Origin: Yuukianura sp. NJ FZ-2021
Lineage: Eukaryota
Direction of reading: 5' to 3'
DNA: 64,000 nucleotides
Assembly (NCBI GenBank): GCA_046563655.1
Contig: CM102290.1
Location: 8,060,001 to 8,124,000, forward strand
Below are positions 38,210 to 61,847 of the stretch, one piece after another. A program made the position numbers and the translations under genes. Below the pieces are notes generated by a model, which made no database searches, was not told the origin of the DNA, and saw only the letters and a list, made by a program, of their open reading frames with translations. The stretch's first letter is position 1. Each line of letters opens with the position of its first letter.

Positions 38210-39027
38210 CAGTGGATTCTCTAAATAAGGGAAAAAATCACGATTGGAGGATTGGTAGTAGGCGCCTCCCCCAGTACCGTAAGATTTCTGGTAAACGGTC
38301 AGTTATATGGAATTTAAGGCTAGGAACACCATTCTAATGAAAATTTCCTGTTTCGAAGTTCAGAGTATATAATTAATATTAATATACATAATATTCATAT
38401 ATTAATGCTAATTATATGTCATATCTATATACTAATCAATATTATATGGTATATTATATGCAAATTACGCTGTGAATGTCACCCTTATTAAACAGGTTAT
38501 ATAATATAATATATTATATACAGTGCGCTGTTGCGCAGATTGTGCGCTGTTGCGCAGGTTGTGCGCTGCTGCGCAGGTTGTGCGCTGTTGCGCAGGTTGT
38601 GCGCTGTTGCGCAGGTTGTGCGCTGTTGCGCAGGTTGTGCGCTGTTGCGCAGGTTGTGCGCTGTTGCGCAGGTTGTGCGCTGTTGCGCAGGTTGTGCGCT
38701 GTTGCGCAGATTGTGCGCTGTTGCGCAGGTTGAGCGCTGTTGCGCAGGTTGTGCGCTGTTGCGCAGATTGTGCGCTGTTGCGCAGTTTGTGCGCGGATAT
38801 ATATATATAATATATATATATATATTAATATTAGTTAATTCCATTTAATTATCTAATTACTTTTGTTTCGCACCAAAAAAAAATTAACCAAAAAAAAACA
38901 ATCGTAAAAAATAAGCCGATAAACTGAAACATACGTTCCCTCCAAAATTAAAACTTTACGGTACCGCGACTTCGAGTGAAAGTGAGAAAGAGGAGGAGCT
39001 CCTGTCCCTTATTTAGAGAATCCACTG
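38210..39027. mobile_element. Tc1/mariner-pogo-type non-autonomous element (818 bp)
   Basis: Perfect 23-bp TIRs cagtggattctctaaataaggga (38210-38232) and tcccttatttagagaatccactg (39005-39027), flanked by TA on both sides. No transposase ORF. Confidence 0.92.
38523..38794. repeat. 19-bp minisatellite (gtgcgctgttgcgcaggtt) x14 plus partial copy, flanked by TA-rich tracts, nested in the MITE
   Basis: Counted directly; units are near-identical with single substitutions and have no spacers. Confidence 0.97.
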
Positions 39028-42489: not shown

Positions 42490-43680
42490 ATGCAAAAAAA
42501 AAACACTAATACTAAAACTTGTTTTCTTTGAATAGATGGGATGACGGTAGAGAGGTTTTAAGGATAAAACTTTTCCGGACAAATGGAACCTTTCTCCATT
42601 CTGACGTGATCCCTTCAATCTGAAAAATGCTAGTGCAATTTTTCTCTATAAAATACGTTTTTTCGTTTTGCTTGCACATGAGAAGATGAATGGTATCAAA
42701 AGATCAAACGAAACGCAAAAGGCCTAGCAGCCTAGCTTACCGTTCAATGTCACCGCATCGTATATTGCCCAGCGGCTTCCAGTTTTTCAAAAACTTTGAA
42801 GAGCTGCTTCCTCGGTATTGAGGATCATCTCTTCCAATCAAAAAATCTATTGGATCACTTTGACATCAATCACAGAAGCTCGCCTTTTTTGCTTTTGTAC
42901 ACCACGGTCCCACATAATTCTCCAAAAGAAAAATACACAGAAAAAAAAATTTTTTTCGGAAAATTTCTGTAAAAAACAATACCTTTAGCCTTGCGTTGAA
43001 AGGTAGGATTGATCTCAAACAATTTTGAAGTTACGGATAATATAAAACAACATATCAGTGTTTCAACTAATCGATTTAGTGTTGCCGCGTTTCAAATATG
43101 TTAAACTTTTAATTACTACATAGTGTTAAAATTACGTAATGTAAGTCATACCAAATAACATAACTAAACCTGATACACAAACCAAATTTGGTGGTTCTGC
43201 GTCAAAGTTACATACTTTGTTTCACTGCTGCATGCTGTAGGTTCTTATTGGTCGTGATTGATGTATTGTAGAGATGAATTGACGTTCCTAAGGTACTTAA
43301 GATGCTCTTCAGATTCGATTTCCTTTCAATCAAACGGCAATGTAACCTAAGGTTCAAGTTCTACAAGGATCGAACAATTCATCACATCGGCATCATCTTC
43401 TGCAAGGTTTTGGGTTTCCTTATTTTCGGTTATATTTTTCAAGTTTTGCAGCGTAATTTGCAAAATTACATCACAAATAAGAAAGACTTTGAGTTTCGTA
43501 AAACAGTCCTCAATGTCTAGGATTTTGTGCATTAAAGTTTCTGTCAAATTCAGATCTTCCGTAATATCAAGTTCCCTGTGTATAAAGTGTGTCACGTACA
43601 ACCGTGGTTTTGTATTTATAGTTTCTTCCAGTACAATACCACCAAACGTGGTTTGAACAAGCTTTGTAACATGTTCAAGT
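42490..43680 (-). pseudogene. Probable decayed spliced gene of unknown identity
   Basis: Phase-compatible exon-like blocks (ending 42983; 42741-42921; starting 42619) with gtattg and gtaagc donors and a ttttcag acceptor. One acceptor reads GG instead of AG, and there is an in-frame TGA at 42866-42868. An upstream protein-like frame (about 43170-43680) has several stops. Confidence 0.4.
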
Positions 43681-43686
43681 GTTACA

Positions 43687-43992
43687 GGTTACAGCCCGCA
43701 ATTTAAAAGCCGACAACGTCAATAGCCCAGAATCCTAAAGCCGACAACGTCTAAAACCGACAAAATTAAAAACCAGTAATAAATTAGCCTAATCGAGACC
43801 CTATGCTGTAATTCACCTTAACCAAAACTAACGTAGGTTAAGCTTAATTCACCCTAAAATTGCTAACTAGAATATAGTAGGACGCGGTTTTAATTTTGGC
43901 GGCCAATAACGCTGTTGGCTGTTGAAGTTATCGCCTTTTGATTGTCGTCATTTGGATTGTCGCCTTTCGGGTTGTCGGCTAAGGCCTGCTCC
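43687..43992. mobile_element. Inverted-repeat element with subterminal tandem ccgacaa/ttgtcg motifs
   Basis: Left arm has repeated ccgacaa, right arm repeated ttgtcg, GG...CC ends and a central taggtta-like core. No clear TSD. Confidence 0.65.
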
Positions 43993-44659: not shown

Positions 44660-45195
44660 TTTCTTTTCATCGGAATTGAAAGTGCACTTAAGTATCGTCA
44701 GATAATTGTAGGGATCGTCTTGTCCGTCCGTCTGTCTGTCCCTCCGTCTGTAGCGCTAATAAGTTGAGAACCACTACACTGATTGTTAAGCGGTTTTTTA
44801 ATTACTAGTAACTACTAACCAGATGACTAAAAATCAATTTTTTCATTCACCAAAGGTCATAGGTCAAGTTTATACTCCATTTACAATAGGGAAACGGATG
44901 GACAGACTCGGAAGCGGTTTGCGTTAATGGGCTTTTGATGACCTCAAGTGACCTTTAACAGGGTCAAGGCTCAAGGTCATCTTTTTTTTTTCTACAATTC
45001 GGAAACGGAATAACGACGCGAGGACTAAGATTCCGAATGCTGTTTGACTTCAAGTGACCTCTAACAATGTCAGAGGTCAACAATATCAACAATACCGAAA
45101 CTCTCTTATAACTGATCTGACGATACTTATTTATATCGTCTTTGCAAGAAAATTCGAGCATGAAAAGAGCCTTGCCTTTTTCTAGCTCCGAGCAA
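44660..45195. mobile_element. Helentron/DINE-1-like non-autonomous element
   Basis: gtccgtccgtctgtctgtcc microsatellite near the left end. Perfect 15-bp inverted repeat taagtatcgtcagat (44689-44703) / atctgacgatactta (45115-45129), outer tcttttcat/atgaaaaga inverted pair, and multiple aggtca/tgacct motifs. Boundaries approximate. Confidence 0.6.
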
Positions 45196-45730
45196 AGAAA
45201 ATGCATTACAGATGTATGAATTTTGGTTTCCTATTTTCAAAACACGTTAGCTTTAAAAGCTGTAATAACATTCACCACAAGTAGGAATCAAAAATTTGTT
45301 GGTCCAGATTCAGACTGAGAATCCTCGAAAGAAGCGCCTTTTGATTTAAAATTTTTAGCAAAGCGGAAATAAAAATATTTTTTTGGCTCGCTAGCAAGCA
45401 AGCTTAGTATTGTATGCTGTATCAAAATTCAAAACGCTTTTTTGCGATGACTAAATTTTTCAGTGGAACTAAAACTTTGGTCGGGAAAAATAGGGCCAAA
45501 CCACAACGAAAAAAAGTTGTTTTTTTCGTAAATTAGTCTGACGCATTTTGAAACAAAAAGTTCGCAGGCTCTTAATCTTGTGGTGCAAATTGGAGACGTG
45601 ACATGGGAGACGTCCATTAACTCTCAATTACTCAAAAAGCTTGAAATTGAAACAATTCATACCATTCAGTATATTCTTTACCGCAAGTTAACTATAAGGA
45701 GTAACGCTGTTGAACTTTGTGTTGTTGACA

Positions 45731-46509
45731 ATGAGTATTCCATTGGGCATATTAGTTTTGTTGATTTTTCTGTGGAATACTGCAGAGTCAATGGACTCAA
45801 TAGTTTTTCAAACTGCCGCCAGCTACAATCCCCAGCACTCTATTCCTCAGCTCCCTGAAGAATTTGTAACAAACTTCATGCAGCACAAGTGGGACTACAA
45901 TGGACACCGTGTGAGTCACGTAGCCACTGGAGCCATTTGGCACTCTTTTAGTAGGAAAATGATCAGAATTGACGAAGTCACGCATGACTGGAAGTCAAAC
46001 AACGCAATAATTGGTGGACCGCGGACAGGAATCATATTAATGTCGGTGTTTGATTTTAATCAAACAGCAACAACTGGCCAAGTTGTCAATACGGTGTTCA
46101 AAATAAAAAATATGACGCACTCGGAGTGCAAAACCGATCGACTTCCTCTGACACAATCCAGTGTTCAGCTTTATTCTGCTGACCACTTGAAGAAGTTCAA
46201 CGCAGGTTACACAAATTAAAGAATTCGAAAATTCGAAAACTCTATGATAGCTGTCTAAAAATTTTCTGCATTCAAGGTTTCACTGGTCAAGAGAACTTGA
46301 ACACTCATGGTCTGTCGAACAAATGGGTTGTGTTTTTTGGAACTACCGTTGCTACGTTCTACTTTGATGAGCATGGTAACCATGTTCGAATGGACTTTAT
46401 ACGTCCGCCACCAGACAAGGCGTCTGTTACGACACATTACTTCAATATGGATACTACTCCAGGAGTCATTCCAGACGATGTCTTCCAAGGACTTACTTGC
46501 AGAACCTAA
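45731..46509 (+). CDS. Secreted 235-aa protein of unknown function (2 exons: 45731-46205, 46277-46509), probable LolA/ependymin-like beta-sheet fold
   Basis: Signal peptide MSIPLGILVLLIFLWNTAES. A phase-1 71-bp intron (GCA G|gttaca..ttcaag|GT TTC) joins the two ORFs into 708 nt. PQLPEEF near the N-terminus, IPDDVF..C at the C-terminus, N-glycosylation sequons NQT and NMT. Confidence 0.85.
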
Positions 46510-48296
46510 TCTTCAAAATTTTGAACAACATTGAAAAAAAACTGAAATCACAAGTTAACTTGAAATGAAATACCCACTTCGGCGTGTTTTTTTTAATTTG
46601 CGTTTGTATTTTTGTGTTTGGAAGTTAATGAAAAGAAAGCATCCTAAAACAAGTTCCCACACGACAACTCATATTTAGTTTTATTGATTTTTAAAATTAG
46701 GACAATTTTTTGTGAAATTTTTGTTTTTGAAATTTTTTTTAGGTTTACGTTTCTAATTCTATGAGTACGTAACATTAAACCATTCAATTAAGGTAAATAT
46801 TGAGTTGATGAATCTTTCGTTTGAATTTGATTTTACAAATTTGTGATATCAATGTCCAAAAATTTTGATAATTGACATGTAAAGCATTACAAATGATTTG
46901 ATGTTATACATAATATAAATTTATTTTTAAGTAATTCATTCGCAATCGTTCTTCAAACCCATTCATGCTTTTGTTAGTAGTAGTTGCAATCCGAATTTCA
47001 ATAATCATATATACATATTCTATGAACGCATCCCTCTCGATCTAAAAGAACATCAGCAACAAAATTGAAAAAAAAAATCACTGTTAAGTTACAAAACATT
47101 TAGGATGGGACTACCCATCTAATTGCATCTAAGCTTATACGAATTGTGCTTGCCAGAAATATCAGTAGTACAAAATCTTAAACCTTAGCACCACTTTGCA
47201 AAATTTTGAATTTTCAATGTAGCTACTGACTACTAGCACCATTTTTTCACAGTTACAAGTATCGTTTGTGTCTTCGCCTCCCTCCGCAGTATACTAACAC
47301 TGTAATAATTTATTTTACTGTTCTATATTATTTATGATTATACTGGTAAGTGTAGTTTACTTAGTGTTGAGGTTAGGCCTACAATTACCAAACTTAGGGA
47401 ATGTTTTCAAAATCACGACACGACATTCATATAAGCCTTCCTACAAACTACAACGACATGACGCCCATGTGCCAAAAATATTCTGGGAACATGTACATGC
47501 TCCAGCGTGTAAATTTAGTAAAACAAATGTTTGCTTTCACTTAAGAGTCCATTTCCGAGACGTGGAAGGTCACTTTGTCCAAGTGATTACACTTACTCCT
47601 GACCTCATGACCTTTCTAAAACGGTACCCTAGTTTAATAAGTCTGATGACATGACACCAAAATTAACATCACATCAAATCTGGTTTAACCGACCTTTTGT
47701 TTCGTTACGGTCAAATGTTGCCTAATTCTGGAAGGAAAGTTCGCATTTCTGCCGCTTTTTTGGAGGGAAAAGAGAGGAAGATGATGTGCTTGCTCCCTTT
47801 GCTTTCTTTCCGAGTTAGTTTATACAACAAAAGCGGTGATGAATTGAACGGTGAAAGTTTTGTTTGCTGTTCCGGTGGGGTTTTGTGGCTGTTCCGCTAC
47901 CCGGGAACCTTGTGTAAGTGATTCCACAAAGTATTATTAAGTAGATGCTGGAAGATGTATTGCCTCTTCCGAATATGTAAACCTCTCTTACCGGTCGAAC
48001 TTTAACTTTTCCGGAAAACGAGAGCTTTCTCATCCATAATGTGATTTTGCCATGAAAAGAGAATTTTTTCTATAGAAAATATTAGTTTGCCTCCTGTAGA
48101 ATTTTTGGTTTGAAATAGTGTGGTTTTCCATTCGGAAGTAGGAGAAGTGTTCGCCTTGCGATATGCACTTTCTCTTTCCATTTCCTAACATGATTCACTA
48201 CCAATCACTACTACAACACAACTTACCATCGTAACGTAATAGTAAAAGATGATTGATGATTTTCAGCTGAAATAATGTGGTTCTAAATAACATTTT

Positions 48297-51200
48297 TTAG
48301 CTCCACTGATGCATGGGATGAAGGGGAATGGAAGTTCCGTTGCAGTTGTGATGATTTCTGTCCACTAGACGATTCTGCATATTTGTTCGGTAAATGGCTC
48401 TCGACATATGTGGACGTGGTGGTTTCCGGCGGCACAGAATCCGACGAAACGCGCGCTGAAACTCTTTGGAGGTACACCTAATGTTGTGACACAACAAAAG
48501 TAATAGAAAACAAAATTAAAGTAAAAATGAAACAGAATAAAGGGAGGAAGAATCGGTAAATTATGAATTTCGAAAGATTCAAAGTTACGGTCAAAGGTTA
48601 TAAAATGATTTTGTGTAACGTACGCGTAAATGAAAGGATTTAAGCAGCTATTCATGTAGCCCAGCCAGAAGAAGAGGTCAAACACTTCGTCAGGAACGTT
48701 ACACTCTTTGCAGAGCGCAGCTATAAAGAAAAAGATTATAAAAAATAATAGATTAACGAATGGTTTTCTTTTAATTACGTCATTTTAAAATTATTTGATA
48801 ATTTCGAATTGTATTTCCTACGTTAGTTTTGGAAGTGGGTCACAGGGAGGAGAAATCCCATTGAATTTAGCTACTTTGTTTGCATTGTTATTCAAAACCA
48901 AAAATAGAATGGCGCATCTCAGGTTTTAATCATGCTAATTCAGATTTCTGTTCGAGTCCTCTTCAGAAAAAAGTTTTGTTTCCAAATGCATTTTGAATAA
49001 TGAGGAAAGTCACGAGTCTTCATGACATGTTTTTGCGAGTGTGACATTTTTGGAGAAAGAAAGAAATTTAATGGAAAGATACTTAAGAAAGTAAAAAACT
49101 GAGAAATGCTTGGAAACATGAAATTTCACTCATTATTAAAAGATTTTTTGAATACTATTAAGATAGAAGGGAACGTCAAGACGTTAATAAATGACGCTCT
49201 GAAAAGCTCTTCTTTTCTTCCCATCTTTTGTTCCACGCAAAAAGTCAAAAAGAAAACGTTAAGGTTGTGAAAGAGAAAGATCCAGATTCAGTCGGTTTTC
49301 CTGAAGGTTCTAATGGAAGCACACCATTATGTCAATTGTATTGTATCAACTGCAATTATGTCAACTGTTTTGCGTCAGCTAGTATTGTCTCAACTGCTAC
49401 TTGTCTCACCGTGCGTAAAACTTAATTCAGCTTAACTTAGGTTTGATTAAGTTTTTTGATCCAATAGCCGCTGACTCAGTTGTGCATTGATGCAAATCCA
49501 ATTGACAAAATTCAGTTGATGGAATGATAGTTGATACAACGGCATCGGACCGTTCTAATCACCTACCTAATTCAACTTAATCTATTCAGCCGTTAATCGT
49601 AATTTACTATAAAATAAGCTTAGGGTTATGAATAACCTATGTTGAAATTTTTTGTTAAGCTAAATTACAATAACTTAACCTGACGTTAATAAAAATAGGT
49701 TAGGTTTAGAAAAAAAAGAGAAAGTCACTAGGTCAAGTCATGTCTCATTGATTTTCAGGAAACTGTGCACATAAACACATCAGCTTTGTATAGAAACAAA
49801 ACAGGATTGAACGTAATTTGAAAAACATTTTTGGAACTGGTTTTCACGTTTCATCAATTTGTGATGATAATGAGTTTGATGGTTTGAGGATGATGAAGAT
49901 GAAATTAAGAATTGACAGAACCGTAACCGAAGAAGAAGCTGTCAAACCAATTCCGCTCTATCTGCTACAAAAACTGTTTGAACAGCGTTCAACACCAACG
50001 GAGGGCACAGAAGAAGCATATTCAACATCAGCCTCGGTCAAAGATGATAGACAAAGTGCCCTCGAAGTGTTTTGTCCATGTTAGAAGTCATTAATCACAC
50101 CTCACTTCAAGTTATTAGAACGAACCCCAATGGAGAACGTTGGCTTAAATTTTTTAAAATCTTGGAACATCATGATGTTCCGAAACTTTCAACTTGGCAG
50201 TTTTTCCAAGAACGAATATGAATTTGTAATACCGAAAATATGTAATTTCGGCACGAAAACATACGAATATGAAAAGCCTTTAAGAGCACTCTACGTCTAA
50301 GTGTCATTTTGCATACATGAGTCAGGATTTTCAGACTCGAATCTGTAGAAACATTTTTTTTGAAAACCGTGTTCAACTTCTTTAAAAAATTGTTTAGAAA
50401 GCGAGTTCTTTTTTTTATATTACAAACAGAATGAAAGCAACGCATTTCAAAAACGACGTTAACTCTATCCGTCTTTCTTTTTTGTTTTTTTCTCTTTTCG
50501 TTTGTTTTTTGAATTTTGAAGGTTTAAGGCGGTTTCTGGAAACTCAATTTTTGTTTCAGTGTTGCGCAATTGTGGCAAATCTTAAAAAAATTTCCAGGAA
50601 AAACTTTACTCTGTAAGAACTTCATTATTTTCAAAACTATCGCTTTCTTTTCCTTTCTTTTTTTCTTTTTCTTTTTTTGCTTTTGCTTTTGTTTTTGTTT
50701 TTTGTTTTGTTTTGTTTTTTTTTCTTGAAAATGCTCCACTTATACTACAACAGGAAAAGTTTTCAGTTTTGTTAAGCGTCTTTTTTTTAACACCACACTT
50801 GAAAAGTTTTTAAATAAAGTCTTTCAGTTTCTTTTATCTTTAGCTTTGATGGTATTTCTTTCCAGCTTTTTCAGTTTCCGGGTTTTGGAATTTTATAAAA
50901 TACTTTAAATATAGTTTCTGAATTGTGAATTTATTCAGCTCAAAAAACTAAGCGCCGCGGAAAAATAACGGATGTTTTTAATATCTGTGACGCTTGACGA
51001 CAGACAGGCATTGTGCAGCTCTTTAAAAAATGAAATTTCAAAGAGAGGAAAATTTTAAACGTTGAGAAATATAAAATGGATGAAAATGACAAGAGAAGTC
51101 TACAAGTTCTCATCAAATGCAACCCCATGACCTCGTTGTTTGTTTTGAGGTTGAGGCTTTCACCCTGTGGTTTCAACCTAATGAAAATCCAGAAGAAAAT

Positions 51201-54200
51201 CAAAAGGAAATGAAGCCGTCCGCATAAACTAAACAGTTTTAATTAGTCACGGCTTGGAGCTCAAAGTAGCTTCTTCTAAAACTTCAAAACCGAAAGGACT
51301 GGTGTATACATTTGTTATTAAACTTTTTTTTTTCAAAAGTTAAAAATTAAAAACAATTTGTTTCCTCTTTGTTGAAAAAACTTTGTTGCGTTTTGAATAT
51401 TGTAACCACTGTTTTTCTCACAGCTCACCTGTAAAACCACGTTGTTTGAGGAACTATTTTCTGTAACATTGAAAACTTTTTGAGACCAAAATCCAAACAA
51501 TTGGCTTTGAAGCAAATAAGAAATGACCTTGAATTTGAAAACCACTGAAAGCTGAGAGAAGGATGAATTGTTCAAAAGCAGTAACTTTCCAATCGGCTAA
51601 TTTCCTGTTTAACCTTTCTTCTCTTTTGACAGCTTCACTTTCATAATTTTCAAAACAGAAAAGTTTTCCAACCGAAAACTTTGTTTTAAAGGAGGAAAAA
51701 AATTTTCAGCACTTACAGTAGAGGTTGTTTCAGTGCAATCCCAACTGAGGCCAAAGTGAAAATTGGCATTCCAATTTTTTTATAAATGCTTTTTAAAAAA
51801 CTTCTAAAAAATATGAGTCTCCAAACTTCTTTCCAAAATTTTTCAATAAAAACTGTACTTTACTGTTTTCATTCACAAAAAAACTTTTTAAACACGGAAG
51901 TGGTATGATTATTTTCAAAATTTGTGCAGCTCATGACACTCAACTTTGAGCCAGTCTAGGAAAAAAATGTCTTGTTAATTATTTTAAAAAAGTTTACATG
52001 GACTGGCAAAAGTTGAACTAAATTTTGAATGAATGCATGGATACACAACAGTCTAGAAAAATTAGTTTGGAAAATGGAACGTGCTGTAGAGAACATTTTT
52101 GAAAATGATTTTAAATTTATGTGATTTATGGAACGAGCAACATTTTCCGGTCTCCTTGTTTGAAACTTTGCGGGCACAGTTTGAAATGTTGGAAACAATG
52201 GGAGGTTAGTTAATGCGAATGTCACGAATTTGCATTAGGGAAAAACAACAAAATCTACTGGAATATCCGGTACACGACACTCCGCTGACCACAATGCACC
52301 GGAGGACATTGAATTTCCTGTTGTCGTGATCAAAAGAAACTGTCATTACGGGAGCGCTTTGAAGTTGGTAATGGAATTGGATTTGTACGGCAGAAAACAG
52401 AATTGGTGGATGCAGCGATGCATAGAGCTGTGTCAAAAGTTGTTTCCTCCAACCATGAAATATTCTAGTCTAACAACAAATTTGTTTTCCGTTTCAAGAA
52501 TAAAAAATAACACAGTAAAGAAAAGAGGAAGAAAGTTTCTCTTGAGGAACTTTTTCGTTTCCATCCATACCTTGGAAACGCTTTTCAGCGAAAATCCTTT
52601 AGAGCATTATTAGTGTAAAAAGGGAAGTGAAAGTGAAGGTGTTGGCTTGATGATGGATGAGTTCTACATGGCTCACTTTCGCTTTCACTTGAGTAATAAT
52701 TGGTTTGGACGTTCCAACAACATCAAATGTCTTTTTCGTGAATTAGAATAGGAAACTCGTGGTTCTGAAAGGAGTTCTATCGGCGGCATAAGTTTGACAT
52801 CTTGTTCATCTTCATACCGCCGACGATCATACAATGGCCACAGCCTGTGACACGCGTCATTGCAGAAGAAAACGGCGTCATTGAAGAAGCGTCATTAAAA
52901 CTGTCGCTGCCACTCAATACTTTTCCTAAATTCTCGTTAAATTTTTTACCTAAAAAAGCTAGTGACTTTGAGCAGCTGAGCCAATCTGAAGATGAGTGGA
53001 GTCTACTTCAACTTCATAGATTTTGATTTTAGTGAAATTTTTCAGAACAAAACGGGATTAGTAATTCAAAACATTTACGATAACACTTTTACTTATGCTC
53101 AAACAAAATTTTAATAACTTTTTTTTAGAAAAACTAAAAACGCCCTTTCAATTTTGAACATGCTGCTTCTACTATTTTTTTTTCAAACGCTTATGTGGAA
53201 CTACTAATTTTTTTAGAACCAGCTCTACTTTAAACGCTAATGAACAAGGAAGCGGAAAATTTAAAAAATTAAATTCGTAAAAGCAGAGTGCTTTAAGTAA
53301 ATTTGAAGTTCATTAAAATTGAAGCTGATAGATAGATAGGTCAAACATGAGACTAGAAGCTCCTTTTGACTATTACTTTTACTTCGTTAAATTTGCCACG
53401 AGTGAACATTTACGTTTCTCGTAAAACTAGATTGGAGTCACTAAATTGAATTATGCCGTTGCATTGGCTCCAAATTTTTGCCCTTCCTTTAGTTTCATCA
53501 TCTTAGCCTGAACTATGACCTAATGAGTTCTTTTGAAGTCATTATTACAAAGTCACTCCGGTTTCATCATAAAGTTTTGATTTTTTTCAAATGGGTTTTC
53601 TAGTACAGTACACTTCAAGCCTCTGATCAAATGTAAATAAAAATGACTGTACAAAAATTGAATTGATTTCCAGGGTATGAAGAAAGCGGGGCTATCAAAG
53701 TTCAAGTGAAGCCTAAAACTTTCTAAATATCTATTTGAACAGTTTATACTCGAAATTCAATCTGCAATTGAAACGCCTGAAAAGTTATCCTCTAAAAATG
53801 AGTTCAAAGAAAATGAAAAGTACACTATGTTCCACGTGTTCTAAGCACTTCTTCACATGCTTTCACCAATGTACCAAAACTAGTAACATTTTGAACCGAT
53901 ATAATATGCTCTAGCAATGGGTATATTGTCATCACAAACAAGTATGTAGAAAGCTCTATACAAAAGCTTAGGGTAGGCTAACCTAACCTAAGCTTAGATC
54001 TACGTTCTCGGAAATTCGGATATTGTATGGAAAAAATATTATGTTTAAGTTAAAAAATAAACTTCACAAATTTCAGATCAGGCAAATTCGAAACCTAGTT
54101 TTCCAACATGTGCCTTCGAGAACCTAGTTTTTTTTTTTCAGAAAGAAAATTCAACTGTAAATCCAGAACGTGTGCGTCCTTCGCGACGGTCTTTGGAAAA

Positions 54201-57200
54201 TCTATATTGTATCCCGTGTCACTTTAGGGAGTAAGTCGTTTCGTCCTTTTGGCTTTCTAAGACTTTGTATTGAAACTTAAATTAAGTTGGGGAAAAGGTA
54301 TACCAGCAACAACTTTGGCATGTACAACACTGAAATATGAAATATTTTTTTAAATGAAAGTTATAAAACTTTTGATTGGTTCGTGGAAGCGTTTCTGATT
54401 TCCCCGCTGAATCCTGAGATGTGATGGTAATTTGAGTAAAATAAACAAGAAAAATTTCAAACGCACTTTCACCAAAAAAAAAGTATTCAGAAAATACTTA
54501 AGATTTGTAAACAACAAATAAACTAAATTAGTCTTCAAAGGTTGACTTTGACACGTGTTTGACTACGCTAAACCATACTAACGTCATAGTTATTTTTAGC
54601 AAACAGGAAATTTATAACCATTTCTAAATATTTGAGGCAGGAAAAGTATTAAAACGTAATTAATTTTTTAATTGTCCCAATATTAAATAAAACGAATAAA
54701 AAGTCATGGGCAATTTTAATAAAATTACTTCATATGTTACTACAAATTAACTCAAAAAGTGATTTGCGCTATACAAGAAAAAGAGAATCCATTTCCATTT
54801 CCCACCTTCAAAAACAACTTTGTGGGAAATTTCAATTTTTGGTTGTTTTTGTTTCCAAAGTTGTCAAAAGCGGTTTCAAAACTCCACTTTCTTTTTCTGC
54901 CGAGATACAATTTGAGACTGGAGATTTTTCAAAGTTAAAAGAAACCCATGGAGTAAAGAAAGGTCTAGAAGTAAAATTTTTCTATAAATCATAAAAACAA
55001 AAGGAAGGAGAGAAAACCGTTGAAGATTTGAGCAGATTTCACGGCCCACGGAGCGTCAAGACAAGTTCAATCAATCATGTCTTTGCTTTCGGAAACCGAC
55101 CGAGGGAAAGGAGAAACCCTTGCGAATTTAGAAGTGATCTCTTTTGCAAAGTCTCTTCACTCGGCGGTTTCAAGATCTGCATCTCTAAGGAAACTGGTTA
55201 GTCGTTCGGAGGTTCAAGATCACTTGAGCACGGGTTCTCAAACCACCGTGTAGGGTACGTAATGTACTAAGCTGTAGTACTCCCTAAGACTTTTTTGAGA
55301 GGATTAAATTAAGTATGAAAGGGTTTGAAGTAGAAAATATTTACTTTCTCCTTGCTGCCTCGCGCCTCAATCCGCTTAAAATCTTTTCACTACCGGAATT
55401 TGGATTCTTGGAATTTTTTTTCAACAGGCATCTTTAGAACATGTTCCAATTTTCTTTGCAAATTACGATTCAGGAAAAAAACTCAGTTTTTTGGAATCTT
55501 AGCAACAAATATAAAAATGGAACTATGAGTCGACTCGACTAACCTTGCTATTAAATTGAAAACGTTAATTAGAATCTGATGTAGAAGATAAGCTACGAAA
55601 CAAGAAAGCACTTGTTGAAGCGATAGTTTGAACAACTTGGAAGCGGAAAAGTTTATAAGAGCGTGGCTTCAAGTGCTTGATTTTGGAAAACAAAAGTATC
55701 TGATCCAGAAAAGGGTAAAATAGGAACGATTGCTGAAAACAAAAGTGGGTTGTGAGAGTGCTAGCCTTGGGAATTCGTCAAGTGTGTGCGTAGTGCTACG
55801 AAACATTGGATAATAGTTATATAGTTATACCTTCAGATTCTTACACAAAAACTTACCAAGTGGAAGGACAAAGAAAAATGGAAACCAGCAAAGAAGAAAG
55901 GCTCCGACGACGATTGCCAACGTCTTTGCCGCCTTTTTCTGTCTCCTGAATTTTGCAATTTTTCCAAAACCAGCGTTGAGTTTTCGCTCGGGAGAGGATG
56001 ACGGTGGCGACGGAGTCAAAGAGTTCGGACGACTTCCATTCAGCCCCCCACCACCGCTGCCCCCGAAACCATTCCCCACCACTCCACCTCCGCCCTGGCG
56101 ACGCAAACTACTGACATTGTTTGGGTGCTGAAAGTGGTGCCCTCTGCAGCCGCGTGAAGGGCGTAGAGCCCTTGGAGTGAAACAAGTCCAATTCAGTTCA
56201 GGAATATGCTTGCCACTGTGCTGTTTCCCACCACCGCCGCCCCCTCCACGGTGAACCCTGAGAACAATTCCAGTTTCATGACCATAATCATCCACTACGC
56301 CAGCATGAGAATGTGACGAAGACGAAGAGAGTTCAGGTCGGGCCAGGGGGGCCAACTGTTTCGTGCCAACTTTTGACCCTGCATGTCCATTTCCTGGATG
56401 TGGATAGTCTGTCTTAGGAGATGTTCTTATCATGGCTAGGTCGGGCGTTGAATTGGCCCGCCCCGTGGCTCCACCAAGGTGGATCCGAAGAGTTACGTCC
56501 TGTTTCGTAGTTTTGATTCCACATTCCAGAAATTTCGTTTGTCGAATAGCAGCTTTGTAAATTTTCCAGTAAACAATCAAAATGATAAGCATCGGCAGGT
56601 AAAATGATCCAGTGGCTGAGAATAGAACATAGCCAAGCTCCTTGTTGATGGTACAATCGTAGGGCATACTGGGCGGACCTATTTTTTAAATTTAAATATC
56701 CAAACCTTAACATTTGCGGTTTAAATCTTCCAATAATAAAAGCATTAAATGCTGTCGACAATACATGGCAAATCAAATGCAGTTGGACTGAGAAAAACCA
56801 CACAAGTGCATGCTCACCTTTCCATCCAAAAAGTGGTCCAATGCTGATGGTGATTGAAATAGCCCATATAAGTACCATCAGAATTGACGTCCGCTTGCCC
56901 AGCATGATTGTGGAGTAGCTGAGTGGAAAATTGACGCCGATGTAACGATCGACGCTAATAGCACATAGAGAAAATATGGAGGCCTATGGAACAAATAGTG
57001 TTGGTTCACAATGTTAAACTTATTACAAACAAGTGTATTACAAAAAACTTTTGATCATATGGATGACCTTTGGCGAAGAAAACCTTCTCTTTTAGGAAGG
57101 CCACATAACCTCTTAACCTAATCTTCACTTAATATCATTCCATTTGTCTTACCGTGCAGTAGAGAACGTCAATTGCAGCCCAAATTCCACAAAAAGTTTC

Positions 57201-60200
57201 TCCGAAGTACCATCTAGTAAAGAAAAAAAAACACAAAAATGTAATTTTCTTAAAGAAAAAATGAGCTTCACAAGAATTCTTTTGGGATCGTCAGCAGAGA
57301 AAGTCGGTTGCATTTGTCTTGATGGAGAAGTCTATACAGTAGAAGAGGCAAAGGCAGTAGCCATAATCAAATTTAAACTACTAGAATGGAAGTGTTACAA
57401 AATGTACAAAATGAATCCAATTCCTGCTTTTTATTTTTTTGTAGTAAAATTGAGTTTTTTGTCCTTTGAACATTTAATTGTATTATTTTTTCTTACGAAA
57501 TCGAAAGAGTTTTGTTCAATTTCTTTTTTCAAAGGTCAGCTTTTCAGTAAAACGTCAAAAGTGAAACTGTTTGATTGTGCTACATCATTCCATACTTTGT
57601 CAAATGTGTCAAAGAGGTCTGACGCTTATTTTTCCAAGTTAAAACTGATCAACAAGTGACTATGTCAAGATTTCAAGATTTCTTGGTAGTGCCTAGTGTT
57701 TGCCCATATGTCATTGTAGTCCAATTTTGAATATACTGTTTTTTTAAAAAGAAGAACAAACCGAGTGTTACAAATCTAAAACCGAAAGTGTCACTTTTCT
57801 CCACAACCGAAAACATTTCGTGCAACGAGGGTAGAGACAAAACAATCTTCTTCTAACAAAAGAAAAAAGTAGACACGGTTCGGTATGATTTAAAATTATT
57901 CCCTCTGCTGCCATTACTCACAAAAATGAGAGGAGAATTTTATTTTATTTTTTAAAAAGTTGGTGTTTATGGAGACTGAGGCAGTATATTCTTGGAGCAA
58001 AACGTAACTTTTTTGTACTGGTGGTAGCAGTCTCGCTGTGAAAGTGAACTTTTGTGTGTCATTTTGAGATACAAAAGTCTCAATCCATTTCGTTTCTTTC
58101 GCGCTGTTGACAAATAGGAAGAATGTTTCCAAAGACTTTCTTTTCCAAATTCAATTCAGAATGGAAAGAGAGAGCCTTAAGGCACGTCCTACGTTTCTTT
58201 ACAGAATGAAATGAGGAAGTGGAAATTCGGTTAGCTCCGCTTCGAACTTTTTTTATAGAACAGTAAGTGTGGATTAGAAAAATTCGCACTTTTTGGAGCG
58301 TCAGTAAAAAAAAATTTCTTAGAAACTTCCATTTCATAATAAAAGACCTTGAAACTTGAACCGCATGTGAGGCATTTAGTTTTTGCAACACTGTCAGATC
58401 AACGAATCAGAACTCGATTTAGAAAAGTTTCCATTTCTTATTTTAAAAAGTTTAAGAATTCGAGATTTGCAAAATTTTGAAAAGAGAAACTGAAATGGTC
58501 ATTCTGTATTTATATCGGCCCGCCAACAGAAATTTTTTAATTTGTTTTTGTTTCCGATTTGTGGGGGGCATAACGCAATGGATTATTATTAGAACAAGAT
58601 ATTTTCAGTATTTCGAGTGACTCATTTCTTACTTTTCCGAATTGGTTTTCGAAAAGAAAATAAATAAGAACCGACAGAGAAATGGCCGCTTCAATAACTC
58701 TTCCAACTTGTCTGGGAAGCACGTGGAAATGGAACCTTTTTTTTAAATGAAGGTTGTGACCTTCACTGCTGAAAAACTGCGCAAAAAAACGGAACTGACA
58801 GAGAAAAAACATCCAAGAAAAAAATAGACCCTGAGCGAAGTCTATAATAAAATTTTAAAATATGAAGTTGAAGCTCCTTACTGCAAAATGAATTTAAACG
58901 TTGACTTTGTCAAATTCAGTTGAAGGCTAACAAAATTGTTTGATACAAAAAAAAAAAAACAACCAATTCAATTTGTATTCTTAGAAAAATAAATTCGTCG
59001 GATCGCTGAATGCAAGATTCAAAAAGAGTGAAAGCGACTTTTCACTGGTTTTAAATTATTCACAATCAAAAGCGCAGTAGTAATTCGACCATTTGTGCAG
59101 TTTCATATTTTTTCTGAGAATCATATTAACTTTGTCAAAGGATGAGAAGGAAATTTTGTGACTTTCAAATTTCATTAACAAAGAAGAACAAATCTGGAGC
59201 CCGAACAGACACAAAACGTAGCACAATTTTAGCAGTGGTTGGAAGAAAATGAGCGTCTTCGAGTGAATTTAATTCCACCATCGTTAGATTCTCTCGCACC
59301 GGGCCACCGCCGCCGTAAAGTGAGAACACTCTTCTTTGAAATAATAAAAAATTAAGACAAAACGAAACACCTTTACAGTTGTTCTCAATTAATTTAAATG
59401 TCAGAGAAATAAAACTCCGTGTTCATGTTCTTTATTAGTTTTTTTTATTGCATCTTTTCGAAAAAAAAAAAAGAGCTCAAATTTCTTGAAAAAAATACTT
59501 TTGTGGCTGTTTGCGCTTCAACCTTGCACTCGTTCAAGGTTTTTCGTTCAAGGGGATTAAAATTTTTGAAACAAACTCAGGTTCAAACCTTTAGGCGCCA
59601 GTATTTAAAAGAAATCTCCGCCGGTTTTAAAAAAAACTTCACGTTTACGTAGTCTTTCTTTAGAAAGTGATGGGAAATTAAACCTTGAAGCTCAATTAAC
59701 TCTGCATTTGAAAGGGAGAGTTTGTGCATTACAGGATTAAGTAGTTGTGTAAAGGCTCAACTCAAAGGACTTTAACTGAGCCCTTAATGCCTAACAAAGT
59801 GGAAAGTCCTACACATAAAAACGTGTGTCATGTGTCAAAGGAGTCATAAAAAACGTTTCGACTAAAAAGTAAGCTAGCGACTTTGCAGCAACACTTTTAG
59901 TTAGATATAGCTTGGAAAGGAGGGTAGGCAGGAAGTAAATCGCTAAGTACGTTCATTCAAAAGTAATGGAATGCGCTTATCTTTAGTTTCCAATCTGGAT
60001 TTGACATCGTTTGCGGCACAAGTGTACCAAAATATCAACAATCTAGAAACGAACCAGCTAAACATGGTAAACAGAAATACAAAATTTAACCAGTGCACAC
60101 AATCTACACCAAAATCGATCATTTTTGAATTTCATTAAGATCTACGTTCAAAAAAGTGAAGCAAGGTATACTCTCTGTGTATGAATTTTTTTTGTCAAAA

Positions 60201-60792
60201 AACGTTTGAATAGCTATATTGGATAACACCTTCAAAGGTAAATGGCATGAGCAAAATTTCAAAAAAATTCACCAAAAATATTGTTGGTGTTAAAAGATTT
60301 CAAAGGCGGTTTCTCCAGTGAAGATTTTTTTTTGTTTTTTTTTTCCAATTTGTCCCTAATTTTACCATATTTTTCTTGTATGTCGATCGCTTTGTGTTGA
60401 TAATTTGGTTGGGTTTGACCGAGTATGAAGGTAGCATTAAGCTTTGAGGTCAGGAGGAGAGTTCGACGGAATCAAGTTGCCAAGGGATATTAGCGAGGTA
60501 CTTACTTTCCCGTGATTTCAAAGACAGCCGAGAATGGCAAAACTGTCAAGCCCAATCCAAGGTCTGCAACGGCCAAGTTCACAATCAAGTAATGCGTCGA
60601 GCTGCGCAGATTTGGACTCAGCGCAACTGCAAAGAGAACGAGCACGTTTCCACCAATAGTCAATAGGATGATGACGGTAAGGGCCAGGGCTTTCAGCAGA
60701 CCAATCGTCAACGGAAGTGGAGCATTCACACAATTTTTTAAGTCATCCAGTTGTTCGTTCCACGCACAGGGCATGCCGGTCGAGTTCGCCAT
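48297..60792 (-). CDS. Class A aminergic GPCR, alpha-1 adrenergic receptor-like, 537 aa; exons 60506-60792, 57153-57213, 56818-56983, 55857-56678, 48624-48720, 48297-48477
   Basis: All six exons join in frame (1614 nt) with GT-AG sites. GGNVLV, NLAVADL, VLPFSA, WYFG..C.IWAAIDVLYCTAS, DRYIGV, ISIGPLFGW, GYVLFSATGSFYLP, KKAAKTLAIVVG, CWFPFFFVLPL, FWLGYMNSCLNPFIY. An acceptor just upstream of the ATG suggests a further 5' exon. Confidence 0.93.
49315..49551. mobile_element. Non-autonomous DNA-transposon relic with 8-bp TSD, in the large GPCR intron
   Basis: Direct repeat gttctaat at 49307-49314 and 49552-49559, GG...CC termini, left-arm tandem tcaact motifs versus right-arm agttga motifs. Confidence 0.75.
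50640..50725. repeat. T-rich low-complexity tract (tttc/tttg)
   Basis: Seen directly. Confidence 0.85.
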
Positions 60793-61847
60793 GAGAGTAT
60801 CGTTGAAATAAATCTGAAACAAATTGAACAAGAACAAACAAAAATTTGGTAAAACGTTAGGTCTACTTGAGCTCATTTCGTCTACTAAGTCTGCACCCAA
60901 CAAAATTATTGAAGTGCGGCGCCATTGCTGCAGGACTTTTTTAACTTTGACCTCCAAAGTTTACAACGACTTTGGATGGAAAGTAAAAATGTGAGAACAT
61001 TCTCACAAGGTCGTTGGACCAAAAACAAAAGTTTCCTGGAAATTGTCAACTAACTTGAGTAAAATATGTAACTATGTGTAAAACCCGGGAAAATGTTTCC
61101 CACAAACCTCTGTTCTGGAACGTCAAAATTAATTTTGTACTCCCTAAACCCAGGTTACACCAAAAAACCAAAACACTTTCCCTCTCCACTTTCCAAAATG
61201 AAAGTTAAAACTCATGGACCAGAAAATCAGTTGTATAGATGGAAAGTCTGCATCACCAACTACTACGATACAATTAATCAACCAAGCACTACATGCCAAC
61301 CCTCAACTCTGGTCTTGTGTAGCTTATTTTCAGACTGTTTCACAACTGTAACTCACAGATTGATTCAAATCTAAACACAAATGAGACTTTCGCAACGAAT
61401 ATAGCATTTCCGGTGAACTTGGAATTTGGCAATACCCGCCGGAAGTGATATTGAAATCAAATTTTCAAGAAATGGAAAAGTTTGTATTAGTTTTCATGCA
61501 TACTCTAAATTTGTAAAGATCTGGATTGAATTTTGGAACTTGTTTGCAGCATAAATACAAACCCTGTAGGTGTACATTTTCACATTTTCGGAATATATGC
61601 ATTTGCGTATATATTTTTTACAAACATGCCGAAGAACATTTTGGAAGCGAGACTTTGGCTTCAGTGGATATTCACACGTCTAAGTTGATTCAAAATTTGA
61701 AAAGTCTTATTCCTATTTAAATTTTCAATTTTTTTCCTTCAGATTTCTTTTTAGAATAAAAAATCTAGCCGAGTTTTAGTAAATTCTTTCATGCAGACTT
61801 TCACCTTCATCACTTTTTCGTATACTTTCTCACTTCGTAGGATAAAA

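What the first reader, a model, noticed from the sequence alone, without database searches (positions are those of the whole stretch)
45731..46509. Candidate horizontally acquired (fungal-like) secreted protein gene
Seen: signal peptide, one short host-type intron, and flanking animal genes, which argues against contamination. The motif series F..NFMQHKWD...SHVATG.I..S.S...RIDE...SVFDF...GQVVNT...AGFTG...W...T.Y.D......DF......V.T.YFN....IP..VF matches my recollection of an uncharacterised secreted fungal family (QHKW[DN]..SHI..G). I do not recall it from insects. The layout suggests a LolA/ependymin-like lipid-binding fold. Inference: domesticated HGT gene in a soil or fungus-feeding arthropod.
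Basis: inference. Interest (0 to 1): 0.75.

Follow-up and report, generated by a model that had tools for sequence, protein, structure and literature searches.

The report
Fungal-type lipid-carrier-fold gene in arthropod
An arthropod chromosome carries an intact gene for a small secreted protein whose close relatives fold like bacterial lipid carriers and whose nearest named relatives are in early-diverging fungi, so it was probably taken from a fungus; its family seems not to have been described.

Summary
The gene is real: two exons (45731-46205, 46277-46509), a 71-nt intron, 235 aa, signal peptide, single copy, between host genes and a host repeat. The host is an arthropod; 'springtail' comes only from earlier scan notes. 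A model of a 53%-identical full-length relative has the LolA/EPDR beta-clam fold (VioE Z 17.6, sponge ependymin-related protein 15.1, human EPDR1 14.6). The protein is not an ependymin by Pfam or by the three-cysteine rule. It belongs to an apparently undescribed, patchy eukaryotic family: fungi, a sponge, choanoflagellates, Amoeba, Bigelowiella. The nearest named relative is the fungus Calcarisporiella (42%). In trees it sits among fungi (98/96), and grouping it with the sponge genes is rejected (AU p 1.7e-7). Strict nesting inside fungi rests on Calcarisporiella alone (p 0.17 without it). A second, intronless copy lies on an animal-like metagenome contig. Best reading: an old fungus-to-arthropod transfer, kept under purifying selection (about 0.7), most likely a secreted carrier of a lipid or small hydrophobic molecule. 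No RNA data were available. The scan had not noted this family before. Fungal transfers are routine in springtails, so interest is moderate.

The parts
45731..46205 (+). Exon 1: ATG, signal peptide, strands of the first shelf, L7-like lid (residues 1-158 plus first base of G159)
   Evidence: beta-strand series in model
45731..45790 (+). Predicted signal peptide, about residues 1-20 (cleavage site inferred by eye)
   Evidence: hydropathy; helix 5-21 in model
46206..46276 (+). 71-nt GT-AG phase-1 intron, weak donor GTTACA, 28% GC, unique in the genome; absent from relatives L002, L003, L004
46277..46509 (+). Exon 2: residues 159-235 and TAA
   Evidence: 52% identity to P0003 152-229
46127..46129 (+). 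Cys133, conserved in 31 of 32 family rows; inferred partner of Cys233, matching EPDR1 C113
   Evidence: correspondence inferred from spacing
46498..46500 (+). Cys233, conserved in 28 of 32 rows; inferred match to EPDR1 C210
   Evidence: the structural alignment to 6e7o ends at model 229 (Cys) against chain 210
45693..45698 (+). TATA-like TATAAG 38 nt upstream of ATG (consensus match only)
46774..46779 (+). Candidate poly(A) signal ATTAAA (consensus match only)
44688..45150 (.). Host interspersed repeat (MITE-like, 15-nt inverted arms 44689-44703 / 45115-45129) about 580 nt upstream; ties the gene to host DNA
   Evidence: 99 further matched pieces from 40 scored candidates, on contigs C1-C8, C10, C11, 66-94% identity
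39899..41160 (+). Upstream host gene DDRGK1, six exons, 296 aa (context)
48297..60960 (-). Downstream convergent host GPCR gene, rhodopsin family (context; limits approximate)

Best explanation
An intact, single-copy host gene acquired long ago from an early-diverging terrestrial fungus, of a lineage near Calcarisporiella or Mucoromycota. It encodes a secreted, probably N-glycosylated, one-disulfide protein with the LolA/VioE/EPDR beta-clam fold. It most likely binds a specific lipid or small amphipathic molecule in the groove under its lid and carries or sequesters it outside the cell, for example a dietary fungal lipid or metabolite. Shown: gene structure, host embedding, family, fold of a close relative, tree position, purifying selection. 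Inferred: splicing and expression, direction and donor of transfer, intron gain after transfer, ligand binding and tissue.
For: Named relatives by BLASTP bits against the spliced protein: Calcarisporiella 171 (42%), Apophysomyces 135, Umbelopsis 130, Absidia 118, Parajaminaea 98. Sponge-group rows reach at most 97, named Geodia 81. Tree of 32 rows: window + L002 + L003 at 96/89; with Calcarisporiella and the AT-rich unnamed pair at 95/94; inside a 16-row branch holding all 8 named fungi at 98/96. AU tests reject window+sponge against fungi (p 0.0008). With Calcarisporiella and the AT-rich pair removed they still reject Metazoa (p 1.7e-7) and Holozoa (p 3e-7). Diagnostic columns: 23 shared with five other fungi only, 8 with the sponge group only. 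No named arthropod or other bilaterian appeared among 25 HMMER hits (cluster look-ups covered 20 of these 25, and five named no organism or were not looked up) or among the 13 and 13 profile hits. dN 0.35-0.44 with saturated dS in both exons; L002 against L003 dN 0.127, dS 0.94. Fold: pLDDT 87.7, VioE Z 17.6, EPD-BCP1 15.1, LolA 14.5. L003 shows an intronless copy beside an animal-type Hint gene and an intron-bearing gastric-lipase-like gene. Base rate: 809 foreign genes in Folsomia candida, 32.8% fungal (PMC5490193, passages).
Against: Without Calcarisporiella and the AT-rich pair, fungal monophyly excluding the window is not rejected (p 0.167) and the window clade sits in an open fork with two fungal branches (93/87). 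The tree has no true root. The family also occurs in a sponge and choanoflagellates, so an ancient origin with many losses is possible. The hosts of the closest rows (L002, L003, P0043, P0044) are unnamed. The ESM Atlas's nearest cluster (59 members) is 'commonest Arthropoda' on 8 recorded members and could hold arthropod relatives that my searches missed. The fold was shown on P0003, not on the window's full protein; the exon-1-only model gave no clear fold match (best Z 8.2, VioE 6.8). The donor site is weak. A shared fold shows no function.
Confidence: 0.68

Rival explanations
1. Vertical descent with massive loss: an ancient eukaryotic LolA-fold family with two paralogous branches. One was kept in fungi and this arthropod lineage, the other in sponges and choanoflagellates.
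For: Patchy presence in Geodia, Choanoeca, Mylnosiga, Amoeba and Bigelowiella. Fungal monophyly is not rejected once Calcarisporiella is removed (p 0.167). The Atlas cluster is commonest in Arthropoda.
Against: It needs loss in nearly all animals. 42% identity to one fungus exceeds the 27-38% to the other fungi. With all rows, fungal monophyly is rejected (p 0.0008, in effect one test). The three relatives with DNA are intronless.
Confidence: 0.17
2. Transfer from a non-fungal soil or water microbe, or via another animal. The AT-rich unnamed clade (P0043/P0044, L004, 29% GC) is the donor's kin, and Calcarisporiella is a co-recipient.
For: P0043/P0044 are closer to the window protein (47-48%, 178-183 bits) than any named fungus, and their host is unknown. 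The fork among window clade, AT-rich pair and Calcarisporiella is open (76/23).
Against: The next branches out are fungal (98/96). No relative was found in viral contigs (77 stretches, none confirmed) or prokaryote genomes (91 stretches, none confirmed); both scans are pattern-limited.
Confidence: 0.1
3. Function rival, independent of origin: a secreted VioE-like catalyst or catalytic chaperone acting on a small aromatic molecule, rather than a passive carrier.
For: VioE is the top fold match by 2.5 Z. P0043 passes the Pfam VioE cut-off (25.4 against 25 bits, E 1.9e-5). The family keeps polar residues Q51, K53, H63, R79, D81, R196, D198 and N215 in 27-31 of 32 rows.
Against: VioE is cytosolic and lacks a signal peptide and disulfides (PMC6363788, passages). 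Identity is only 15%. Most characterised fold members bind lipids. No VioE alignment could be obtained to check catalytic residues.
Confidence: 0.2
4. Recent pseudogene: the 71-nt stretch is an unspliced insertion that truncates the protein.
For: Weak donor GTTACA; relatives lack the intron; the window branch is longer (0.58) than its sisters.
Against: Exact GT-AG ends restore the homologous N-A-G-F junction. Length and GC match host introns. No stops or frameshifts in either exon, and similar dN on both sides.
Confidence: 0.05
5. Fungal contamination or chimeric assembly.
For: Fungal best named hits.
Against: Mid-contig position on C8 of a 22-contig assembly, host repeat 580 nt upstream, host-like GC and intron, and an independent animal-like contig with a 52%-identical copy (L003).
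Confidence: 0.02

Closest known systems
VioE, violacein biosynthetic protein (PDB 3bmz, 2zf3, 2zf4; Pfam PF18234)
   Same: Best fold match: Z 17.6, rmsd 3.2, 171 aligned. A close relative, P0043, just passes the Pfam cut-off.
   Different: VioE is bacterial, cytosolic and has no disulfide. This protein is secreted with a Cys pair; identity 15%; the window's exons give no PF18234 hit.
Ependymin-related proteins: human EPDR1 (6e7o, 6e8n) and sponge carotenoprotein EPD-BCP1 (8i34); Pfam PF00811
   Same: Same fold (Z 14.6 and 15.1), signal peptide, about 210-235 aa, N-glycosylation sequons (N110, N127), and a Cys pair placed like C113/C210.
   Different: No PF00811 hit in any of 22 family members. 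Only two cysteines; the N-terminal core cysteine is missing. Family-specific QxKW..GxxVxH motif. Present in fungi, where two surveys found no EPDRs (PMC6280359, PMC6363788).
Bacterial LolA lipoprotein chaperones (8orn, 8v1k, 2w7q)
   Same: Beta-clam fold with lid, Z 13.6-14.6; exported protein.
   Different: Eukaryotic, disulfide-bearing, 8-15% identity, no Lol pathway context.
Uncharacterised fungal proteins: Calcarisporiella thermophila XP_069246267, Umbelopsis nana GAB5589424, Bifiguratus OZJ06449, Parajaminaea CAO1636002
   Same: 36-42% identity over most of the domain, shared W.S.NA...GP insert and QHKW motif.
   Different: No function assigned by the sources; fungal hosts.
Fungus-derived genes of springtails (Folsomia candida, PMC5490193)
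   Same: Same presumed route, fungus to soil arthropod, followed by domestication.
   Different: Most described cases are carbohydrate-active or metabolic enzymes. No LolA-fold case turned up in my searches; the supplementary gene lists were not read.

Membership tests
Ependymin-related proteins (EPDR) | Match to Pfam PF00811 Ependymin | tested here: not met
   0 families for either exon; 0 of 22 family members match PF00811 at E<=1
Ependymin-related proteins (EPDR) | Three core cysteines (alignment positions 23, 94, 186 of PMC6280359) | tested here: not met
   Only C133 and C233 in the whole protein; no N-terminal cysteine column in the family
Ependymin-related proteins (EPDR) | C113/C210-type disulfide pair | tested here: met
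   C133 in 31 of 32 rows and C233 in 28 of 32; alignment to 6e7o ends model 229 against chain 210. The bond itself was not measured.
Ependymin-related proteins (EPDR) | Signal peptide, about 210 aa single domain | tested here: met
   Hydropathy and length
LolA/EPDR/VioE beta-clam fold superfamily | Curved 11-stranded antiparallel sheet with lid | tested here: met
   On relative P0003 (53% identical over 225 aa): 11 strands in model, Z 13.5-17.6 to VioE, EPDR and LolA. The exon-1-only model was inconclusive.
LolA/EPDR/VioE beta-clam fold superfamily | Hydrophobic ligand bound in the groove | not testable with these tools
VioE (PF18234) | Pfam gathering score | tested here: inconclusive
   Window exons: no hit; P0003 15.4 bits, below 25; P0043 25.4, just above
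VioE (PF18234) | Cytosolic, no signal peptide | tested here: not met
   N-terminal hydrophobic signal
VioE (PF18234) | Catalytic residues and activity on the indole-pyruvate imine dimer | not testable with these tools
   No sequence alignment to VioE was returned
Domesticated horizontal transfer | Physical linkage to host genes | tested here: met
   (assembly level; no reads)
Domesticated horizontal transfer | Best non-metazoan score far above best other-metazoan score | tested here: met
   171 against 97 bits among 35 chosen rows; unnamed close rows set aside
Domesticated horizontal transfer | Nested within the donor clade in a tree | tested here: inconclusive
   Nested with all rows; not significant without Calcarisporiella and the AT-rich pair
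Domesticated horizontal transfer | Expression and splicing | not testable with these tools
   No RNA run listed

The most novel reading that the evidence does not exclude
The family is a secreted eukaryotic counterpart of VioE: a cofactor-free catalyst or ligand-steering chaperone with an invariant polar site (Q51, K53, H63, R79, D81, R196, D198). It has moved from fungi into animals more than once (this arthropod clade, possibly the AT-rich unnamed clade) and lets fungus-feeding animals handle reactive fungal metabolites. It would also be the fungal branch of the LolA/EPDR superfamily that two surveys reported as absent.
Probability: 0.12. Interest if true: 0.75.

Novelty: new variant of a known kind. 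Interest (0 to 1): 0.45.

Why it matters
Two surveys reported no ependymin-related proteins in fungi (PMC6280359; PMC6363788), and one reported none in ecdysozoans. This gene points to a Pfam-less family with the same fold that does occur in fungi and, apparently by transfer, in an arthropod. It gives a small, tractable protein for asking what secreted LolA-fold proteins do in fungi and why a fungus-exposed arthropod kept one. The transfer alone is ordinary if the host is a springtail.

Tried and rejected
RNA evidence: no RNA holder listed, which is no evidence either way. Pfam: no family for either exon. PDB by sequence: only a chance methylase hit at E about 0.5 and nothing for P0043 or A6. 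Viral contigs, prokaryote genomes and predicted viral structures (best E 2e-4, TM 0.44 or less) gave no credible donor. Paralogues in the own genome: none with P0001 or P0003. PF00811 in the own genome: no match, but no control rang, so this is uninformative. The intron as a repeated element: only itself found. The AGGTT repeat at both intron ends was considered as a target-site duplication and dropped, because AG|GT is expected at splice sites. Synteny of L003 with the window: only the gene itself matches. The exon-1-only model gave no clear fold. Searches returned identical numbers and are counted as one test. Rows left out of trees: P0009, P0024, P0028, P0047, P0015, P0074, P0012, P0013, P0023 (fragments or mis-spliced); P0048-P0057, P0029-P0033, P0035-P0039, P0059-P0070 and P0011 (cluster mates of rows used); L006 (intron-broken). 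P0004 was replaced by its full ORF in L003. Earlier scan notes held no look-alike. Literature: 8 searches; none of the listings described this family, but subscription journals are not covered and supplements were not read.

Full report
Observation. The window holds an ATG at 45731 and an open frame running to a stop at 46217-46219. A second frame ends in TAA at 46509. Of 9 frame-compatible splice pairs, 46206-46276 gives a 235-aa protein. It restores the N-A-G-F junction seen in the intronless relatives P0003 and L003. The intron is 71 nt and 28% GC, with a weak GTTACA donor. The neighbouring DDRGK1 gene has five introns of 59-92 nt, three with GTTAG donors, so the style fits the host. The protein has a hydrophobic N-terminus (KD 3.06, against at most 1.85 later), two cysteines (133, 233) and two N-glycosylation sequons (110, 127). 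Coding GC is 43% and GC3 45%, within the range of three host coding stretches (GC3 36-45%).

Context. The gene lies mid-contig on C8 of a 98.7-Mb, 22-contig assembly and is single copy. DDRGK1 lies upstream and a convergent rhodopsin-family GPCR downstream. A MITE-like repeat at 44688-45150 has copies on at least ten contigs. The genome has 41 matches to the arthropod cuticle domain PF00379 over its cut-off, against 0 of 14 control genomes, so the host is an arthropod. That it is a springtail comes only from earlier scan notes and was not tested here. Contamination is very unlikely.

Family. Neither exon hits Pfam. HMMER over 1.84 billion representatives gave 25 relatives of exon 1; word-seeded searches gave 2, 13 and 13. 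Named members are the fungi Calcarisporiella, Umbelopsis, Apophysomyces, Absidia, Bifiguratus, Parajaminaea, Basidiobolus and Neoconidiobolus; the sponge Geodia barretti; the choanoflagellates Choanoeca and Mylnosiga; Bigelowiella; and Amoeba proteus. No named arthropod or other bilaterian appeared, but many rows have no name. The closest rows are unnamed: L002/P0003 and L003/P0004 (52-53%, two copies from one metagenome assembly) and an AT-rich pair, P0043/P0044 (47-48%). L003 is a 9.5-kb, 38%-GC contig with a Hint-domain gene (46% to a gene of G000) and an intron-bearing gastric-lipase-like gene. I read it as animal, probably arthropod; this is an inference. L002, L003 and L004 are intronless. 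The ESM Atlas returned a 59-member cluster commonest in Arthropoda (phylum known for 8), an Ascomycota cluster, plant DUF8395 and mollusc ependymins. I could not see its members, so unsampled arthropod relatives may exist.

Origin. Against the spliced protein the best named hit is Calcarisporiella thermophila (171 bits, 42%); the best sponge-group row scores 97. In a 32-row tree (LG+C20+F+G4, 213 columns) the window groups with L002 and L003 (96/89), then with Calcarisporiella and the AT-rich pair (95/94), inside a branch with all 8 named fungi (98/96). Holding the window with the sponge rows against fungi is rejected (AU p 0.0008; two searches gave identical values and count once). After removing Calcarisporiella and the AT-rich pair, Metazoa (p 1.7e-7) and Holozoa (p 3e-7) are still rejected. 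These two tests also reflect the sponge gene's own grouping with Bigelowiella and Choanoeca. Fungal monophyly excluding the window is then not rejected (p 0.167). So the gene is fungal-allied and not a simple orthologue of the sponge gene, but strict nesting hangs on one fungal sequence and the tree is unrooted. Diagnostic columns favour five other fungi over the sponge group by 23 to 8. Synonymous sites are saturated against all three relatives with DNA, while dN is 0.35-0.44 in both exons; L002 against L003 gives dN 0.127 and dS 0.94. This indicates an old gene under purifying selection. The intron was probably gained in the window's lineage.

Fold and function. The spliced protein could not be handed to the folding tool, so I folded P0003 (53% identical over 225 aa) with 33 sequences: pLDDT 87.7, eleven strands. 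Foldseek ranks VioE first (E 1.4e-9), then the sponge carotenoprotein EPD-BCP1, EPDR1 and LolA. The wide search gives VioE Z 17.6 (rmsd 3.2, 171 aligned), EPD-BCP1 15.1 and LolA 14.5; human EPDR1 scores 14.6. P0043 just passes the Pfam VioE cut-off. A model of exon 1 alone has the matching strand series but no clear fold hit. By spacing, S72, R79, C133, W175, F228 and C233 correspond to EPDR1 D70, R77, C113, W151, F204 and C210, which PMC6363788 (passages and section 12 read) lists as conserved; this mapping is my inference. That paper reports lipid binding by EPDR1 and ligand binding as the unifying feature of the fold. PMC10470211 (abstract) reports carotenoid binding by the sponge protein. 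I therefore favour a secreted carrier of a specific lipid or small amphipathic molecule (about 0.6 for function alone). The conserved polar set and closeness to VioE leave a catalytic role open (about 0.2).

Comparison with what is known. It works like a LolA/EPDR-type ligand carrier but is not filed as an EPDR: PF00811 fails and the N-terminal core cysteine required in PMC6280359 (abstract and passages) is absent. It is not filed as VioE, being secreted. Both surveys found no EPDRs in fungi. Arthropods do have the fold in the 26/29-kDa peptidases (PMC6363788; PMC10380794, passages), so the fold is not new to arthropods, but this family is not described in the listings of my 8 searches. Fungal transfer into springtails is common: 809 foreign genes in Folsomia, 32.8% fungal (PMC5490193, passages). 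Earlier scan notes list several other fungal-type genes in this genome (unchecked). Supplementary gene lists were not read and may contain relatives.

Verdict. A domesticated fungal gene is the best reading (about 0.7). The more notable point is the undescribed secreted LolA/VioE-fold family that includes fungi. New variant of a known kind; interest 0.45.

Noticed in passing
window 44688-45150: MITE-like interspersed repeat with 15-nt inverted arms and a (GTCC/GTCT) microsatellite; copies on contigs C1-C8, C10 and C11 at 66-94% identity.
   Followed up: partly
window 43693-43970: Short element with a 31-nt direct repeat and a 33-nt imperfect inverted repeat; no other copy appeared in the genome search.
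   Followed up: partly
window 43350-43688, minus strand: 113-aa open frame, single copy, no Pfam family; may be an exon of an orphan gene.
   Followed up: partly
window 38468-38845: Tandem repeat giving open frames on both strands (unit reads as CAGCALLRRLCAVAQVVR on +), just upstream of DDRGK1.
   Followed up: no
L003 6862-7572; G000 C3 13958492-13960834: Hint-domain gene without a recognised Hedge domain beside the family gene in L003; G000 has a tandem pair at 41-46% identity.
   Followed up: partly
L003 665-886, minus strand: 73-aa hydrophilic ORF that looks LEA-like by eye (label recalled; no Pfam support).
   Followed up: no
P0058 / P0040-P0042 / P0010: The sponge (Geodia) members group with Bigelowiella and Choanoeca rows rather than by species tree, so the sponge gene may have its own transfer or paralogy history.
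   Followed up: partly
L006 1114-1756: Intron-bearing member of the shorter-loop branch beside a Zn2Cys6-like transcription factor ORF, which suggests an ascomycete contig (labels by eye).
   Followed up: no
P0043 cluster, L004: AT-rich (29% GC), intronless, 11-member cluster of unknown host that is closer to the window protein than any named fungus and passes the Pfam VioE cut-off.
   Followed up: partly
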